64,000 nt of DNA from an uncultured virus (IMG/VR IMGVR_UViG_3300035135_002447) (Duplodnaviria; Heunggongvirae; Uroviricota; Caudoviricetes), in the IMG/VR virus record IMGVR_UViG_3300035135_002447, one strand, 5' to 3'. Positions 17,543-31,849 of the stretch are shown here, piece by piece. Both the position numbers and the translations under genes were made by a program. The stretch's first letter is position 1; every line of letters begins with the position of its first letter. The notes under the pieces are model-generated. The model made no database searches. It worked only from the letters and a program-made list of their open reading frames with translations, and was not told the DNA's origin.

Positions 17543-17938
17543 TTAGCCGTCGCCTTCGATATCGTCAGCGCCTGTTAATGATGTGTCAGTACCTGCTTCT
17601 TCAATTTCAGCTACATCGCCTGTACCTGTAAAGTCCCAAGTTACTGTTGAACCATTATCCATAGTTGCTTTGCGTCCTGCAATCTTTGTAAGTTGACGTG
17701 CTACTCCGCCGTCATCTACTGTGATAGTCATTTCACCCGCCGCAATAGCCGCTGATGCTTTATCAACTAATGTACATACTTCTTCGTTTGATCCGTCTGA
17801 ACATAAAAATCTTTTTGCAGATTTTTGTTTTACAATCCAACCAGGTGCACTTGCTGTTCCGTTGTGAAATTGTACTTTGATTTCATTTCCACCAGCTGTT
17901 GGTGGTCCAAAAAATCTTTTATTAAGTGGTCTTCCCAT
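17543..17938 (-). CDS. Small virion protein, possibly head decoration; true start MGRPLNKRFFG (131 aa)
   Basis: AGGAG SD precedes the ATG at 17938; the gene has its own late promoter and terminator. The 31-aa extension in the ORF track is the structured leader. Confidence 0.75.
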   Translation of the reverse strand: MGRPLNKRFFGPPTAGGNEIKVQFHNGTASAPGWIVKQKSAKRFLCSDGSNEEVCTLVDKASAAIAAGEMTITVDDGGVARQLTKIAGRKATMDNGSTVTWDFTGTGDVAEIEEAGTDTSLTGADDIEGDG

Positions 17939-17950
17939 TTGTTTTCTCCT

Positions 17951-18029
17951 TGTTAGAAGTCCGATGCGGGTTCTAGCCGCTACGCTGTGGGTACAGCATA
18001 AGTCCGCCTTGCGGCACACTATCTGACAC
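17951..18029 (-). promoter_or_regulatory. Four-way-junction structured 5' leader RNA
   Basis: Closing helix GTCAGAT/ATCGGAC enclosing three hairpins: CCGC-AAG-GCGG, TATGCTGT-ACCC-ACAGCGTA, GCGG-N7-CCGC. Confidence 0.65.
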
Positions 18030-18537: not shown

Positions 18538-18560
18538 TACACTTCTCCTATTAAGGTTAA

Positions 18561-18607
18561 GTGCGTTCCTTCGCCTTATGCTACTTCCGTCCCGTAGGAT
18601 GAACGTA
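18561..18607 (-). ncRNA. Glutamine riboswitch (glnA motif / glutamine-I)
   Basis: ACGTTCA-TCC-TACG-GGA-CGGAAGTA-GCATAAGGC-GAAGGAACGCAC matches the recalled consensus CGUUCA..GACGGAAGUAG..CGAAGGAACGC: P1 CGTTC/GAACG, P2 with a cUACGg loop, E-loop GUA/GAA. Confidence 0.88.
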
Positions 18608-29027: not shown

Positions 29028-29248
29028 TCCCACTCGAGGACTCTGACATACTTGAGTTTTCTAATAAACTAGACAACGAAGTAAAACAACTCAAACACGA
29101 AGTATACAAGCTGTCTTGGTATATGCGAGGTGGTGTTAGTGCTACTGTGCTGTTCAATGACACTGACGTAGAAGATTTAAAAATTCTAGGTAAAATTATT
29201 ACTGAAAATATTGAATCTACAAAGAAAAGTGGACTAAACTTAATTTAA
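29006..29248 (+). CDS. gp51-like ORF in the -1 frame, probably reached by frameshift from gp26
   Basis: Open frame 28976-29248 reads ...LEFSNKLDNEVKQLKHEVYKLSWYMRGGVS...IITENIESTKKSGLNLI*, with no ATG/GTG/TTG before 29123. Confidence 0.65.
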   Translation, partial: KFFLQNLIPLEDSDILEFSNKLDNEVKQLKHEVYKLSWYMRGGVSATVLFNDTDVEDLKILGKIITENIESTKKSGLNLI

Positions 29249-30651
29249 TCAAACTTTACATTACTCGGATTCGGCGGCAACACATCTTGTGATTGATCTG
29301 GCGGTTCTATAGTTACATCTGCTGAATTAATATTATTCCAAGCATCTTGTGTTGAACGTGTAATGTCATCTCCGTCTAGTTTTACGTGATCATCTACTGC
29401 GTCTATTGCAGTTTTGAGTACCGGAGCAGTGATGTTTTCTCTATACTTATCAGCAAGTTCTTGAGCAATAGTACCTTCAATCCTGTCATGTGCCATCATT
29501 GCCCACGGAGCCATCCATTCTTTAGCTGTTTGCATCCACATACTGCTTAAAATTGTTACTGTGGCTTGCTTTCCTACTTCTGTGTTCATTAACCATCTTA
29601 CGCCAAAGTAAATAGCTAGTTCGGTCAAAACAAATATAACTACATTTACCGCTGCGGCACCAAGTAGCCCAACACCGAGCCCAGCGGATCCTGCTCCAAA
29701 AATAACAGCGGCGCCAACAGCTCTTACGTACCTTATTAGTGCCGCGGCAGCTTTTGCAGATGATATTGCAGCATTTGTCAAAACTAACATAATAGGAGCT
29801 GTCTGCATAGCAAATATATTAACTTCCAGTACTTCGTGTGCAGCTAGCCTTTGGTTTAGTAGTCTCTGCTGTTCGGCAAAATCTATTTCACCTTCGCTGT
29901 ATCTCTTAATAACTTCTTGTTCATAAAGAAAAAGTTTTGCTCTTTCGTCTCTAAGTTTATTACGTAATTCTTCGTATGCTGGAATACTTGCTAGTCCTAG
30001 TATTCCTAAAAGTTTACCAAATGGTCCACGAGGTTTAAAAATTTGTTTTTTACCAACGTCTTGATCTTTCATTGCCTGAAGGCGTTTTTTAGGATCGTTG
30101 TCGGCATTCCGTTCTGCTCTACGTGATCGTAGAGTTTTAAGACGACCTTCCATTTGATCTATGTCATCTTGTGTAAAGTAAACTCCGTTGCGTTTTACAG
30201 GAATGCCTCTTCTAAGATCTCTTCTTTCTTTTCTTCTAAGATTCATTTCCTTTTTGGTCATTAATTCGTCAGGATCCATTTTAGCTACGTCTGCTCTAGG
30301 CTCATAACGTCCTATAGGAGTATTGCTAGTATCCGGTTTTTGAATAATAGGATCTTTACTTCCAGCCGAAGTTGGTACGGTGCCAGATCTAAGATTTCCT
30401 CCACCGTCAAAATCTAAACGTGGCATTCCTTTTGCAGTTCTAGCTGAATTTACAAAGCCACCTCTATATTTTTTTGGAATAGGTCCTTTTCTAATATCAG
30501 GAAACTCTTTTTTTGCTTGAGGAGAAATATCAGTAACAACAAAAGTATTACCAGCCCATCTAGCAGTGATTCCTTTCCACTTGGCGATATCGCCAGTGTC
30601 TAATTCGAAAGCACCTACATTTTCAACGAGTATTTCATTTATTGCTACCAT
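29245..30651 (-). CDS. Hypothetical late protein with a basic region and a Gly/Ala-rich hydrophobic hairpin; possible internal/ejected virion protein
   Basis: 468 aa; TAAATA at 30676-30681; N-terminal INEILVE; segment AVGAAVIFGAGSAGLGVGLLGAAAVNVVIFVL. Confidence 0.6.
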   Translation of the reverse strand: MVAINEILVENVGAFELDTGDIAKWKGITARWAGNTFVVTDISPQAKKEFPDIRKGPIPKKYRGGFVNSARTAKGMPRLDFDGGGNLRSGTVPTSAGSKDPIIQKPDTSNTPIGRYEPRADVAKMDPDELMTKKEMNLRRKERRDLRRGIPVKRNGVYFTQDDIDQMEGRLKTLRSRRAERNADNDPKKRLQAMKDQDVGKKQIFKPRGPFGKLLGILGLASIPAYEELRNKLRDERAKLFLYEQEVIKRYSEGEIDFAEQQRLLNQRLAAHEVLEVNIFAMQTAPIMLVLTNAAISSAKAAAALIRYVRAVGAAVIFGAGSAGLGVGLLGAAAVNVVIFVLTELAIYFGVRWLMNTEVGKQATVTILSSMWMQTAKEWMAPWAMMAHDRIEGTIAQELADKYRENITAPVLKTAIDAVDDHVKLDGDDITRSTQDAWNNINSADVTIEPPDQSQDVLPPNPSNVKFD

Positions 30652-30688
30652 CTGAATATTCCTTTGTAATAAGTGTATTTATTATTTA

Positions 30689-30790
30689 TTGTTTCGTTTC
30701 ACGAAACAAGTTTTCGCTAACGCTCAAACTAAACACTTCGTTTGTTTGATATAATTTATGAAGAAACACATTAACACGAAGTGTTAATGT
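30689..30790. repeat. Cluster of three AT-rich inverted repeats
   Basis: TTGTTTCGT-TTC-ACGAAACAA; TCAAACtAAAC-ACTTC-GTTTGTTTGA; ACATTAACAC-GAA-GTGTTAATGT. Confidence 0.75.
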
Positions 30791-30794
30791 TTAA

Positions 30795-31172
30795 GTTTCA
30801 TGTAGATTGTTTCAGTCAGACGGAACCTGTTACGGTTCCATCAAACTCAAGAAAATGCTTCATGTGAGTCCGCTCCAGCCGAGACTTGGAAGTAGGTGTT
30901 TTCTGCTGTACAATGGGCTCTGACCTTTCCCAACCTACGTCGACATATGTAACATATAGAGTGCATAAGACGGTCTTATGCTTTCTGTATAATACATTAC
31001 CCGTTGCTTCGTTCCTGTGCATACGGTTTTTATGTACATTGCAGTTTTTCGACAGCCAACATTCCATCTATGCCAATCAAACACCCTACTACCGGATGCC
31101 GCTCAGCATGTTACGTGTGCTCCTATACGGATGCTTTTTCCACAGCGGTATTTCTAGTCTGGCCCGCTAACC
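30795..31172 (-). ncRNA. Candidate large structured ncRNA (~370 nt)
   Basis: Begins at the GIY-YIG stop codon; GC-richer than its flanks; at least 10 helices seen by eye, including a long-range pseudoknot; overlapping ORFs look spurious. Confidence 0.6.
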
Positions 31173-31622
31173 TTATGTGTTGGATTGTTTTGCCTGTATG
31201 GTGTGTTCTAGCAATGCCTTACGCAATTTATCGGAACCGCCAACTCTAACATTAATAATTCCATTGTAATACTCATCCGTCTCTAACACACGGCGGTCAA
31301 ATTGCTCTCTAGCCTCAATATATGACATTTCACCTCTGCCTTTGCAAAGGTAAAGTATTTCTCTTGTAAAATTTTCTGCGCCTAGTGCTTCAACATCAGC
31401 TTGTAGTCTATCAGATGAACCCCAATAGTCTCGCCAATCACTTTCTTTGTAGCCTCTGCGTTTATTTTTCTTGCCTTTGAGAGGTGGCTTTGTGGTTTTA
31501 AACTTTGCTAGTTTCTTGCCTATATACTTTTGCTCTGTTTTTTTATTAGTAATAAGGTAAACAAATCCTTCATACTCTTCAGGTATCACATCAATTTGTT
31601 TTCCTTTGTAAGTCCAGTGCAT
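31173..31622 (-). CDS. Minimal GIY-YIG (Seg/EndoII-like) nuclease-family protein
   Basis: GFVYLITN...KYIGKK, YWGSS, FTREIL, E(AREQ) and YYNG motifs; 149 aa with no extra DNA-binding domain. Confidence 0.8.
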   Translation of the reverse strand: MHWTYKGKQIDVIPEEYEGFVYLITNKKTEQKYIGKKLAKFKTTKPPLKGKKNKRRGYKESDWRDYWGSSDRLQADVEALGAENFTREILYLCKGRGEMSYIEAREQFDRRVLETDEYYNGIINVRVGGSDKLRKALLEHTIQAKQSNT

Positions 31623-31648: not shown

Positions 31649-31849
31649 TTATTTTTCTTTTCTGGTTTCTCGTGTAGTTTGATGCTTGTTGTGTATCTCG
31701 TCAGCACGTTCTTTTGCTAATGCTCGTATGTCTCGTAGACATTTTCTAACATAGCGATGTGTTCGTACTGAATTACGTTGCTCAAACTTTTCGTTTGCTT
31801 TAAAATATTCTAAGTATGCCTGTACTAGTTGATCGTGTGTATCATCCAT
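31649..31849 (-). CDS. Hypothetical protein
   Basis: 66-aa helical ORF abutting gp46. Confidence 0.65.
   Translation of the reverse strand: MDDTHDQLVQAYLEYFKANEKFEQRNSVRTHRYVRKCLRDIRALAKERADEIHNKHQTTRETRKEK

What the first reader, a model, noticed from the sequence alone, without database searches (positions are those of the whole stretch)
30795..31622. Minimal GIY-YIG nuclease gene immediately followed by a ~370-nt ornate RNA: candidate nuclease-RNA system
Seen on the minus strand from the stop codon onward: TAGCGG/CCGCTG, whose loop GCCAGACT can pair with AGTCT(C)GGC ~270 nt downstream (long-range pseudoknot). Further helices are GCaTCC/GGAGC, ATGCTGA/TTGGCAT enclosing GGCATCC/GGGTGTT, TGGAA/TTCCA, GTCGA/TCGAC, TGTACATA/TATGCACA, GCATAAGA/TCTTATGC, GTAGGT/ACCTAC enclosing TGGG/CCCA, GACTCA/TGAGTT and GATGGAACC/GGTTCCGTC. 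Many G-U pairs on this strand argue for RNA rather than DNA structure. The 149-aa protein has only the catalytic domain plus a basic loop (KPPLKGKKNKRR) and lacks the DNA-binding tail usual in homing endonucleases. Inference: the RNA may be its cofactor or specificity partner, by analogy with OMEGA-type RNPs, or it may be an independent large phage ncRNA or ribozyme. I could not match it to RNase P, tmRNA or group I/II introns by eye.
Basis: partly seen in the sequence, partly recalled or inferred. Interest (0 to 1): 0.82.

Follow-up and report, generated by a model that had tools for sequence, protein, structure and literature searches.

The report
New ornate phage RNA beside nuclease
The stretch after this small nuclease gene encodes a real, heavily folded RNA of about 400 bases that matches no described RNA family, is common in uncultured aquatic phages, and appears to be a unit of its own rather than the nuclease's helper.

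Summary
A 149-aa SegE-type GIY-YIG gene (31173-31622, minus strand) is followed by a conserved, structured RNA (about 31195-30793).

- **Structure:** on 45 homologues, 34 of 74 proposed pairs change on both sides, against 19.7 in shuffles (0 of 500).
- **Novelty:** Rfam 15 gives no match even at E<=10, and three literature searches found nothing.
- **Cofactor reading weakened:** short GIY-YIG proteins of this family stand alone in many phages. Phage Melnitz has a 64.6%-identical copy and no RNA. Three of 75 testable metagenome loci carry the RNA without the nuclease. In 9 of 131 RNAs another ORF lies between them.
- **Odd feature:** two direct copies of one 7-11-nt word, 62 nt apart, change together through at least 15 word versions. 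No complementary word exists in cis.
- **Best guess, about 0.4:** an autonomous RNA module at the end of the early operon that re-pairs with its own template DNA, as an R-loop or primer like ColE1 RNA II.
- **Rivals:** a trans-acting RNP or ribozyme (0.3), a nuclease partner (0.12), and a cis transcription or stability element (0.12).

This scan met the same RNA family earlier on other DNA.

The parts
31173..31622 (-). 149-aa SegE-type GIY-YIG nuclease gene
   Evidence: ORF. Pfam SegE_GIY-YIG E 1e-33; phrog_447 E 2e-38. GIY/YIG/R/E/N positions are invariant in 5 relatives. AF2 model has pLDDT 83; its best fold match is the I-TevI catalytic domain, which is weak (E 0.23, prob 0.87).
30793..31195 (-). 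Structured RNA, whole conserved unit. RNA position 1 is the T of the stop codon at 31175; the 5' module AGGCAAA...CACATAA overlaps the last 7 codons.
   Evidence: Covariation. No Rfam match. The 5' module reappears after inserted ORFs and shows low third-position entropy. Metatranscriptome contigs lie on 30797-31171.
31045..31175 (-). 5' domain of type 1: hairpins H1-H6, RNA positions 1-131. It is replaced by an unrelated domain of about 100 nt in type-2 members.
   Evidence: Helices 1 and 3-7. Type-2 sequences; 22 of 120 loci.
31034..31044 (-). Helix A, 5' strand (positions 132-142)
   Evidence: Pairs with 30903-30911. Covariation at 133/272, 140/267, 141/266 and 142/265. 51 distinct strand combinations, native duplex -11.05 against swapped -6.24 kcal/mol.
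30903..30911 (-). Helix A, 3' strand (positions 265-273)
31001..31026 (-). Hairpin H7 (positions 150-175) with the near-invariant loop AGGAACGAAGC
   Evidence: Pairs UA:28/CG:17 and CG:34/GC:10.
30949..30996 (-). Variable arm H8 (positions 180-227). In other members it ranges from a GNRA-capped mini-hairpin to more than 100 nt.
   Evidence: Alignments. A metatranscriptome variant replaces it with a 9-nt tetraloop hairpin (table 5c).
30933..30938 (-). Helix B, 5' strand (positions 238-243). It crosses helix A, forming a pseudoknot.
   Evidence: Pairs with 30892-30897. UA:82, GC:7, CG:2 at one pair.
30892..30897 (-). Helix B, 3' strand (positions 279-284)
30914..30932 (-). Hairpin H9 (positions 244-262) with the invariant loop AAAGGUCAGAG
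30858..30869 (-). R1, first copy of the repeated word (ACTCACATGAAG, positions 307-318)
30819..30842 (-). Hairpin H11 (positions 334-357), lying between R1 and R2
   Evidence: Three pairs with double changes.
30796..30807 (-). R2, second copy of the repeated word (ATCTACATGAAA, positions 369-380)
   Evidence: Two RNA-library contigs end at 30797 and 30803; this is a weak hint only.
30768..30790 (-). T1, a terminator-like hairpin with a UUCG loop and tail GTTTCTTCAT
   Evidence: The stem sequence varies while pairing is kept. T1 is absent in L336 and L343.
30706..30729 (-). T2, a conserved hairpin (covarying stem, loop GAGCGNUAGCGAA). It occurs once in the 64-kb window.
30689..30709 (-). T3, a stable hairpin with a covarying stem
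30675..30690 (-). AATAAATAATAAATAC, resembling a T4-type late promoter, ahead of the next gene
   Evidence: Sequence. An ATAAATA motif is conserved before the downstream gene. The late-promoter consensus TATAAAT is quoted in PMC9004378 (passage).
29245..30651 (-). Downstream 468-aa ORF, hypervariable between relatives
   Evidence: Only 1 of 80 loci matches it. No Pfam or PHROG family.
31649..31849 (-). Upstream 66-aa basic ORF, syntenic in 80 of 80 loci
   Evidence: The Atlas cluster carries Hc1 (PF07432) in 10-18% of members; this is a lead only.

Best explanation
**Shown.** This is a new family of large structured RNAs, 275-480 nt, or up to 700 nt when an inserted ORF is counted. It occurs in an uncultured clade of aquatic T4-type phages.

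- The RNA lies on the minus strand, at the end of the gp55-gp47-gp46-orf66-GIY gene row.
- The simple scan found no sigma-70-like promoter of its own.
- Its conserved sequence starts about 20 nt inside the nuclease gene tail.
- It has a replaceable 5' domain.
- Its constant 3' core is pseudoknotted (helices A and B cross). The core has near-invariant junctions and a variable arm capped by GNRA loops.
- It is followed by hairpins T1-T3 and a late-promoter-like motif.
- It is one module that usually, but not always, sits behind the GIY-YIG gene.

**Inferred mechanism.** The core carries the same 7-11-nt word twice. R1 lies before hairpin H11, and R2 lies single-stranded at the 3' end. The two copies change together, yet no complementary word exists in the RNA or its flanks.

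The one partner that automatically tracks both copies is the template DNA strand of the RNA's own gene. RNA word R1 can pair with the DNA under R2 only if R1 equals R2.

I therefore propose that the folded RNA re-anchors on its own DNA at R2. That would form a persistent RNA-DNA hybrid that primes replication, or otherwise marks this boundary between early and late genes. This resembles ColE1 RNA II, where an upstream RNA stretch pairs with template DNA near the origin (recalled, not read here).

The nuclease is a neighbour in the same transcription unit, not an obligate partner.
For: **Real RNA.**

**New.** Rfam 15 gives no match at gathering score or at E<=10. There is no blastn match in 50,697 phage records. 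Three literature searches found nothing.

**Autonomous module.**
- The RNA occurs behind non-GIY genes in L336, L343 and L363.
- Inserted ORFs separate it from the GIY gene, and the 5' module AGGCAAA...CACATAA travels with the RNA.
- GIY homologues exist without the RNA in Melnitz, a cyanophage and phrog_447.
- There is a single copy in each of 3 large viral contigs.

**R1 equals R2.**
- Among 128 of 131 unique viral RNAs parsed, the 8-mers agree at 8/8 in 54, 7/8 in 73 and 6/8 in 1.
- In 92 of 92 distinct rows of the model alignment the two segments share a word of at least 6 nt, and in 90 of 92 at least 7 nt. Shuffles give a median of 4 and a 95th percentile of 6.
- There are at least 15 different words, including the unrelated GGCAAT (L305) and ATCATCA (L363).
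- For all five variable R1 columns, the top covarying column is the matching R2 column.
- No complementary 7-mer, G-U pairs allowed, sits at a consistent place within -500 to +300 nt.

**Locus-bound tail.** The T2 motif is unique in the window, and T2-like cores persist in GIY-less loci.

**Presence in RNA libraries.** Contigs from 3 of 4 metatranscriptome runs lie on the RNA region.
Against: - There is no direct evidence of an R-loop, an RNase H cut or a replication start.
- The cumulative GC skew turns at about 36 kb, where gene orientation flips, not at the RNA.
- A compact pseudoknotted core with many invariant unpaired bases and GNRA-capped arms is more typical of trans-acting RNPs or ribozymes than of ColE1 RNA II.
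- R1 is not clearly exposed. In local minimum-energy folds only 57% of its bases are unpaired on average, and the folds are weak.
- A co-evolving trans partner, protein or nucleic acid, would explain R1=R2 equally well.
- T1 looks like a terminator just after R2, which also fits a plain end of transcript.
- The RNA-library contigs cannot show strand, ends or abundance, and DNA carry-over is possible.
My agreement with it is not independent.
Confidence: 0.4

Rival explanations
1. A trans-acting structured RNA, either an RNP scaffold or a new ribozyme. The conserved 3' core folds into a defined three-dimensional body. R1 and R2 are two docking or processing sites for one diffusible partner, such as a dimeric protein, a host RNA, or the RNA's own active site.
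For: - The core is pseudoknotted, with near-invariant junction and loop sequences (CAUAAAAAC, AGGAACGAAGC, AUGUCGAC, AAAGGUCAGAG) and variable arms capped by GNRA loops.
- The 5' domain is swapped while the core is kept.
- Depth in RNA libraries is similar to or above that of the ORF in 3 of 4 runs (contigs, weak).
- RNA-library contigs end at R2 in two runs (weak).
Against: - No partner is known.
- No cis guide complementary to the words was found.
- Rfam has no related ribozyme.
- A trans partner would have to co-evolve through at least 15 word versions.
- The conserved T2/T3 tail beyond a terminator-like hairpin is left unexplained.
Confidence: 0.3
2. The RNA works with the GIY-YIG nuclease. 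It might be a guide or specificity subunit, a regulator or antidote of the nuclease, or the preferred cleavage target that drives gene conversion of this mosaic region during co-infection.
For: - Linkage is close: 95 of 95 testable viral loci and 72 of 75 testable metagenome loci have the gene directly upstream on the same strand.
- The nuclease is better conserved (84-92% aa) than gp46 (57-85%) among the 80 closest loci.
- The RNA gene is a mosaic of swapped modules, and 25 of 80 contigs break inside it. That would fit frequent recombination next to a Seg-type nuclease; Seg biology is recalled, not read.
- Single-domain GIY-YIG enzymes can recognise structured single strands (Ssn, PMC11893778, abstract read).
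Against: - The protein family is widespread without the RNA.
- Melnitz has a 64.6%-identical copy without the RNA, and it keeps the same basic loop.
- The RNA occurs without the gene in 3 loci.
- Other ORFs can lie between the two.
- There is no guide-like variable end matching flanking DNA.
- Synteny alone predicts the linkage, because gp46 and orf66 are equally linked.
Confidence: 0.12
3. A cis-acting transcript element. It could be a 3' end that stabilises the long early mRNA. It could also be a large leader that controls read-through of T1 into the hypervariable late gene, with R1 and R2 competing for one factor.
For: - The position is at the end of the early gene row, just before terminator-like T1 and a late-promoter-like motif.
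- R2 lies 4-6 nt before T1.
- The simple scan found no sigma-70-like promoter for the RNA on the minus strand.
Against: - About 400 nt with a pseudoknotted invariant core is far more than stabilisation needs.
- T1 is missing in L336 and L343.
- The downstream gene has its own late-type promoter motif and is not conserved.
- No alternative pairing that covaries with the words was found.
Confidence: 0.12
4. Not an RNA at all. The region would be a decayed C-terminal part of the nuclease gene, or DNA-level repeats.
For: Some relatives carry an extra 86-aa or 102-aa ORF after the GIY domain. This shows that coding sequence can occupy this position.
Against: - Helices keep pairing through double changes and G-U pairs on one strand only.
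- No frame is open or conserved.
- The extra ORFs are insertions upstream of an intact RNA.
Confidence: 0.02

Closest known systems
ColE1 RNA II preprimer (recalled from the plasmid-replication literature; no paper read here)
   Same: It is a structured RNA several hundred nt long, transcribed towards a fixed site. An upstream RNA stretch pairs with template DNA near the 3' end to hold a persistent hybrid. Hairpins lie downstream. The logic would explain why R1 must equal R2.
   Different: - There is no sequence or structure similarity.
- RNA II lacks a pseudoknotted core.
- No RNA I-type antisense regulator is seen here.
- This is a phage, not a plasmid.
- Hybrid formation, RNase H processing and origin activity are all untested.
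Large ornate RNAs of unknown function often found in phages (GOLLD, ROOL; bioRxiv 10.1101/2024.12.08.627333, search listing and start of abstract only)
   Same: These are big, intricately folded non-coding RNAs found through covariation. They are phage-associated and have no known biochemical role.
   Different: - There is no Rfam match to GOLLD, ROOL, HEARO, raiA or OLE, even at E<=10.
- This RNA is smaller.
- It sits at the end of a protein-coding operon.
- It carries the co-varying direct word pair.
OMEGA systems (IscB/TnpB with omega-RNA; HEARO RNA)
   Same: A nuclease gene lies next to a large structured RNA.
   Different: - The nuclease here is GIY-YIG, not RuvC/HNH.
- Each component occurs without the other.
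- No guide segment matches flanking DNA.
- No transposon ends are present.
Free-standing GIY-YIG homing endonucleases of T4-type phages (SegA-G; I-TevI catalytic domain, PDB 1LN0)
   Same: The catalytic domain is the same (Pfam SegE_GIY-YIG; best fold match I-TevI). There is evidence of horizontal movement: 64.6% identity to Melnitz while gp46 is only 26% identical.
   Different: - In most loci there is only the catalytic domain and no DNA-binding tail.
- The gene is fixed and strongly conserved in this clade.
- Nine loci add a separate small ORF, one kind with an HxxH...CxxC motif and one DUF3820-like.
3'-UTR-derived bacterial small RNAs
   Same: The RNA begins within or just after the last gene of an operon, and it ends at a terminator-like hairpin.
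   Different: It is five to ten times larger, has a complex tertiary-type core, and shows no seed region for mRNA pairing.
Ssn single-domain GIY-YIG nucleases with NTS repeats (PMC11893778, abstract read)
   Same: They are minimal GIY-YIG enzymes tied to a specific structured nucleic-acid sequence.
   Different: - Ssn cuts single-stranded DNA at short repeats present in hundreds of copies.
- Here there is one 400-nt element per genome.
- No test of cleavage was made.

Membership tests
GIY-YIG nuclease, SegE-type (protein) | Match to the family profile above its curated cut-off | tested here: met
   PF19835, 116.6 bits against a cut-off of 25, profile positions 1-123 of 123.
GIY-YIG nuclease, SegE-type (protein) | Catalytic motif residues (GIY, YIG, Arg, Glu, Asn) | tested here: met
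   GFVY, KYIG, K54/R55, E103 and N120 are invariant in 5 relatives and in 8. Their role as catalytic residues is recalled from I-TevI.
GIY-YIG nuclease, SegE-type (protein) | GIY-YIG fold | tested here: inconclusive
   AF2 pLDDT is 83. The top three Foldseek hits are the I-TevI catalytic domain, but at E 0.23-0.51.
Homing endonuclease (mobile Seg-type gene) | C-terminal DNA-binding domain | tested here: not met
   149 aa, catalytic domain only. A separate small ORF is present in 9 of 131 RNAs.
Homing endonuclease (mobile Seg-type gene) | Patchy presence and horizontal transfer | tested here: inconclusive
   The gene is fixed in the 80 closest loci. It is nevertheless 64.6% identical to Melnitz, in another genomic context, where gp46 is only 26% identical.
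OMEGA-type RNA-guided nuclease system | Nuclease and RNA obligately co-occur | tested here: not met
   Nuclease without RNA: Melnitz, a cyanophage and phrog_447. RNA without nuclease: 3 loci.
OMEGA-type RNA-guided nuclease system | Variable guide at one end of a constant scaffold, matching target DNA | tested here: not met
   The only short variable words (R1, R2) are duplicated inside the RNA. No complementary or flank-derived copy was found.
OMEGA-type RNA-guided nuclease system | The protein binds and needs the RNA | not testable with these tools
   The complex predictor takes proteins only.
Known Rfam families (group I/II introns, RNase P, tmRNA, HEARO, GOLLD, ROOL, Polynucleobacter-1 and others) | Covariance-model match | tested here: not met
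   No hit in the region at gathering score. At E<=10 there are only seven chance-level matches, the best being RsaH at 27.3 bits against 50. ARAGORN finds no tmRNA or tRNA.
Group I intron | Order of core helices: P3, the P4-P6 domain, P7, P3', the P8 hairpin, P7' | tested here: not met
   The order here is A, hairpins, B, hairpin, A', B'. No interrupted gene is seen. The group I topology is recalled.
ColE1 RNA II-like preprimer | An upstream RNA stretch able to pair with template DNA near the RNA's 3' end | tested here: met
   R1 is identical to R2 in 92 of 92 rows (>=6 nt) and 90 of 92 (>=7 nt), so R1 is complementary to the template under R2. Actual pairing was not tested.
ColE1 RNA II-like preprimer | Replication starts at the RNA's 3' end, with RNase H processing | not testable with these tools
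   The GC skew gives no sign of an origin here, but skew follows gene orientation in this window.
Structured RNA (general) | Compensatory base changes beyond controls | tested here: met
   On A1: 34 pairs against 19.7 +/- 1.8, 0 of 500 shuffles. On A5: 6 pairs against 1.5 +/- 1.0, 0 of 500. A5 was fitted to the model.

The most novel reading that the evidence does not exclude
The RNA and the minimal GIY-YIG enzyme form a new kind of RNA-directed nuclease. The folded core would be the scaffold. The co-varying words R1 and R2 would be programmable specificity elements that choose the DNA or RNA site to cut, for example in competing phages. This would be a first case of RNA-specified targeting in the GIY-YIG superfamily.
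Probability: 0.07. Interest if true: 0.95.

Novelty: categorically new. Interest (0 to 1): 0.74.

Why it matters
Large, intricately folded RNAs are rare. Most that were understood turned out to be central machines such as ribozymes, RNP scaffolds or guide RNAs.

This one is abundant in aquatic viral metagenomes. It is strongly supported by covariation and matches no described RNA family.

It also carries a feature I know from no other RNA: two direct copies of a short word that evolve in lock-step. That pattern gives a sharp, testable handle on mechanism. Mutating one copy, both copies, or their putative DNA partner would separate the readings.

If the RNA primes replication, it would be the first origin element defined for this uncultured phage clade, and a new kind of origin RNA. 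If it is a ribozyme or an RNP, it is a new class.

The analysis also corrects an appealing but unsupported nuclease-plus-guide reading.

Tried and rejected
- **Known RNA families.** Rfam at gathering score and at E<=10 gave nothing relevant, and ARAGORN found none. Motif resemblances to group I introns and RNase P that I recalled did not survive. There was no model hit, and the helix order differs.
- **Isolated phages.** blastn of the RNA against 50,697 phage records found no match. The core model found nothing in the PA5oct syntenic locus or in Melnitz.
- **R0.** A third look-alike word at the stop codon (CACATAAGG) does not covary with R1 and R2.
- **A cis partner for the words.** No complementary 7-mer sits at a consistent place, and no third covarying column exists.
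- **R2 pairing with the TTCAT after T1.** This is not kept in the ATAAT and GATGAT word groups, judged by eye.
- **R1 and R2 as start codons of small ORFs or as a translational hop.** The helices covary as RNA, and no frame is conserved.
- **AGGCAAA as a genome-wide signal.** It occurs 11 times against 10.4 expected.
- **ACGAAGT.** It is enriched genome-wide, 15 against 5.7 expected, so the T1 and T3 loops are generic hairpin loops, not locus-specific iterons.
- **GC skew as an origin marker.** The turn lies at about 36 kb, not at the RNA.
- **H9-loop to tail pairing (GGUCA/UGACU).** It is 98.5% paired but shows no double change, so it is inconclusive.
- **Local folds of the R1 region.** They are weak and inconsistent.
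- **The window's own assembly.** It is not held.
- **The three GIY-less metagenome records.** They are not held for whole-record searches, so a GIY gene elsewhere on those contigs is not excluded.
- **Metatranscriptome cover outside 30797-31570.** Cover there was near zero. This shows nothing, because the runs were found by shared words and relatives diverge there.
Full report
**What is at the coordinates**

On the minus strand the window carries a T4-type gene row:
- a late sigma factor gp55-like gene,
- gp47 and gp46 recombination nuclease subunits,
- a 66-aa basic ORF (31649-31849),
- the 149-aa ORF at 31173-31622.

The 149-aa protein matches Pfam SegE_GIY-YIG over the whole profile (E 1e-33). 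It also matches PHROG 447, a 148-position family (E 2e-38). The GIY, YIG, Arg, Glu and Asn positions are invariant among relatives. An AlphaFold model has pLDDT 83. Its best solved-fold matches are the I-TevI catalytic domain, but they are weak (E 0.23-0.51).

After the stop codon come about 520 nt without a credible ORF before the next gene (29245-30651). The first 380-400 nt are 42-46% G+C in a genome of roughly 30-35%. The minus strand folds better than shuffles (z -2.71), and the plus strand does less well (z -1.55).

**Is it a structured RNA?**

Yes. The best 80 were kept. Every locus with enough sequence carries the downstream block at 67-98% nt identity.

On a MAFFT alignment of 45 distinct full-length copies (A1), RNAalifold found 53 pairs, 18 of them with compensatory changes.

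My own structure of 74 pairs, pseudoknots included, gave these counts:

| Measure | Observed | Control |
|---|---|---|
| Cells paired | 88.9% | 81.8% in shuffles |
| Pairs changed on both sides | 34 | 19.7 +/- 1.8 (0 of 500 shuffles) |
| Covariation score | 0.246 | 0.135 shuffled; 0.04-0.08 with partners slid |

Frequent G-U pairs, which would be C-A on the other strand, place the RNA on the minus strand.

Helix A (positions 132-142 with 265-273) is replaced wholesale between lineages. There are 51 distinct strand combinations. Their native duplexes average -11.05 kcal/mol, against -6.24 for mismatched partners (only 66 of 132 sequences could be parsed by my anchors).

Helix B (238-243 with 279-284) crosses helix A, so the core is a pseudoknot. 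On 96 distinct core sequences, one B pair reads UA:82, GC:7, CG:2. That alignment was fitted to the model, so it leans towards the model's structure.

**Anatomy** (position 1 = 31175; window coordinate = 31176 minus position)

- The 5' module AGGCAAA...CACATAA overlaps the last seven codons.
- A 5' domain of six hairpins covers positions 1-131.
- Helix A follows, then hairpin H7 with the near-invariant loop AGGAACGAAGC.
- A variable arm, H8, ranges from a GNRA-capped mini-hairpin to more than 100 nt.
- The junction AUGUCGAC comes next.
- Helix B encloses hairpin H9, whose loop is AAAGGUCAGAG.
- Then come UUCCAAGUCUCGGCUG, the word R1 (307-318), hairpin H11 (334-357) and the word R2 (369-380).

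In 22 of 120 loci found with an RNA-only motif, the 5' domain is replaced by an unrelated domain of about 100 nt, while the core is kept.

Downstream lie three hairpins and a promoter-like motif:
- T1 is a terminator-like hairpin (30768-30790).
- T2 is conserved and occurs once in the window.
- T3 is a third hairpin.
- An ATAAATA-type late-promoter-like motif follows (consensus quoted in PMC9004378, passage).

The next gene is hypervariable. Only 1 of 80 loci matches it.

|---|---|
| TAGCGG/CCGCTG | Holds |
| GCaTCC/GGAGC | Holds |
| ATGCTGA/TTGGCAT | Holds |
| GGCATCC/GGGTGTT | Holds |
| GTAGGT/ACCTAC | Holds |
| TGGG/CCCA | Holds |
| GATGGAACC/GGTTCCGTC | Holds |
| GCATAAGA/TCTTATGC | Holds, as the tip of the variable arm |
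| TGTACATA/TATGCACA | Displaced by helix A |
| TGGAA/TTCCA | Conflicts with the covarying hairpin H6 |
| GTCGA/TCGAC | A single palindrome, not a hairpin |
| GACTCA/TGAGTT | Exists in only part of the family |
| Loop GCCAGACT with AGTCTCGGC (pseudoknot) | Inconclusive |

The proposed pseudoknot is conserved but has no double change. It is broken in L207, whose target variant three further loci share.

**Is it known?**

- Rfam 15 gives two unrelated hits elsewhere in the window and nothing here.
- At E<=10 there are only chance-level matches, and none is to introns, RNase P, tmRNA, HEARO, GOLLD or ROOL.
- ARAGORN finds nothing.
- blastn against 50,697 phage records finds nothing.
- Three full-text searches returned no description.
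- This scan's own notes record the same family on other DNA.

**Which phages?**

The nearest isolates by gp46 are PA5oct-like jumbo phages, at 49% identity. Large viral contigs with the RNA are 116-236 kb at 31-66% estimated completeness, and each holds exactly one copy. DNA runs labelled freshwater, wetland and marine hold most of the stretch.

**Link to the nuclease**

With an RNA-only motif, 95 of 95 viral loci with room upstream have the GIY gene directly upstream on the same strand. Another 25 are too short to tell. In metagenome contigs the count is 72 of 75, with 45 too short. The two collections overlap, so these are not independent samples.

Several results argue against an obligate pair:
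- L336 and L343 have the RNA behind an unrelated 255-280-aa ORF, and L363 has it behind other sequence.
- In 9 of 131 unique RNAs, an overlapping 86-aa ORF (HxxH...CxxC) or a 102-aa ORF (weakly DUF3820-like, E 0.006, below the cut-off) lies between gene and RNA. The AGGCAAA...CACATAA module then follows that ORF.
- The module's codons show unusually low third-position entropy in the window-type genes.
- Melnitz carries a 64.6%-identical GIY gene in another context, although its gp46 is only 26% identical. No RNA was found there by nhmmer, by the core model with filters off around the gene, or by the genome-wide search that found the positive controls.
- A cyanophage homologue is followed by another ORF after 47 nt.

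**The repeated word**

R1 and R2 are direct repeats 62 nt apart, flanking H11.

- In the 128 of 131 unique viral RNAs that my pattern parsed, the two 8-mers agree at 8/8 positions in 54, 7/8 in 73 and 6/8 in 1.
- In 92 of 92 distinct rows of the model alignment they share at least 6 identical letters, and in 90 of 92 at least 7. Shuffled controls give a median of 4 and a 95th percentile of 6.
- There are at least 15 different words: ACATGAA, ACGTGAA, ACATAAT, GCATGAA, GTATGAA, ACAGGAA, ACAGAAAG, AGATGATG, and, in the most divergent members, GGCAAT and ATCATCA.
- For all five variable R1 columns, the strongest covarying column in the whole RNA is the matching R2 column.
- No complementary word lies at a consistent place within -500 to +300 nt.

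This is identity covariation, not base-pair covariation.

**Transcription**

The simple scan finds no sigma-70-like promoter on the minus strand between 30400 and 32000, and it finds T1 as terminator-like.

Contigs from three of four metatranscriptome runs lie on 30797-31171 as well as on the ORF. Two of them end at 30797 and 30803, inside R2. Contigs cannot show strand, ends or level, DNA carry-over is possible, and relatives diverge beyond R2. This is only a hint of expression.

**Interpretation**

*Shown:*
- This is a new, abundant structured RNA family.
- Its core is pseudoknotted and its periphery is modular.
- It forms a module distinct from the nuclease gene.
- It carries a lock-step word pair.

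*Inferred:* something complementary must read both words. The partner that needs no separate co-evolution is the template DNA strand of the module itself. RNA R1 can pair with the DNA under R2 only while R1 equals R2.

That points to an RNA that re-anchors on its own gene, forming an R-loop that primes replication or otherwise acts at this boundary between early and late genes. This resembles ColE1 RNA II, which I recall and did not read. An earlier scan note reached the same analogy, so my agreement is not independent.

I put this reading at about 0.4. A trans-acting RNP or ribozyme gets 0.3, which fits the invariant junctions and GNRA arms better. A functional tie to the nuclease gets 0.12, and a cis transcript element gets 0.12.

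The GC skew gives no support for an origin, and R1 is not clearly exposed in local folds.

**Verdict**

- The nuclease-cofactor reading is not supported.
- The RNA is undescribed and carries an unexplained feature that makes its mechanism directly testable.

Noticed in passing
window 18560-18607 (-) and 17936-18018 (-): A glutamine riboswitch (49.2 bits) and a freshwater-2 RNA (75.2 bits) lie about 550 nt apart. In phage Melnitz a glutamine riboswitch is reported next to a two-piece tmRNA (PMC9004378, abstract and passages). ARAGORN finds no tmRNA in this window.
   Followed up: partly
window 31649-31849 (-): A 66-aa highly basic ORF is syntenic between gp46 and the GIY gene in 80 of 80 loci. 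Its Atlas cluster carries the histone-like Hc1 family in 10-18% of members. It may be a small nucleic-acid-binding protein.
   Followed up: partly
L068:3419-3679 (+); L225:1187-1495 (-); also L157, L178, L181, L194, L207, L208, L238: Two unrelated small ORFs overlap the end of the GIY gene and sit before the RNA. One is 86 aa with an HxxH...CxxC motif. The other is 102 aa and weakly DUF3820-like. They could be detached DNA-binding partners of the nuclease.
   Followed up: partly
L081 (Melnitz 30449-30889) compared with window 31173-31622: The GIY protein is 64.6% identical between this phage and Melnitz, while gp46 is only 26% identical, and the gene sits in a different neighbourhood. The nuclease gene has moved between distant phages.
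   Followed up: partly
L001-L080, just downstream of the GIY stop codon: 25 of 80 viral contigs end 40-281 nt after the stop codon, inside the RNA's 5' domain. This probably reflects swapped RNA modules (alternative H3, H5 and H8 arms and 5' domains) breaking assemblies.
   Followed up: partly
window 29245-30651 (-): The 468-aa ORF after the RNA has no Pfam or PHROG family. It is matched in only 1 of 80 otherwise syntenic loci, so this is a hypervariable late gene slot.
   Followed up: no
window, 15 sites, for example 29076, 29097, 30735, 30776: The 7-mer ACGAAGT is enriched: 15 occurrences against 5.7 +/- 2.1 expected, and 0 of 100 shuffles reach this. At this locus (30735, 30776) it lies in or beside the tail hairpins, and in relatives it forms the loops of T1 and T3. 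It looks like a genome-wide hairpin-loop signature.
   Followed up: partly
L336 and L343, about 100 nt upstream of the RNA: Three to four copies of AGGCA(C/T) motifs lie just before the RNA in the GIY-less loci. The same AGGCA core marks the RNA's 5' module in the window (31189-31195). AGGCAAA is not enriched genome-wide.
   Followed up: partly
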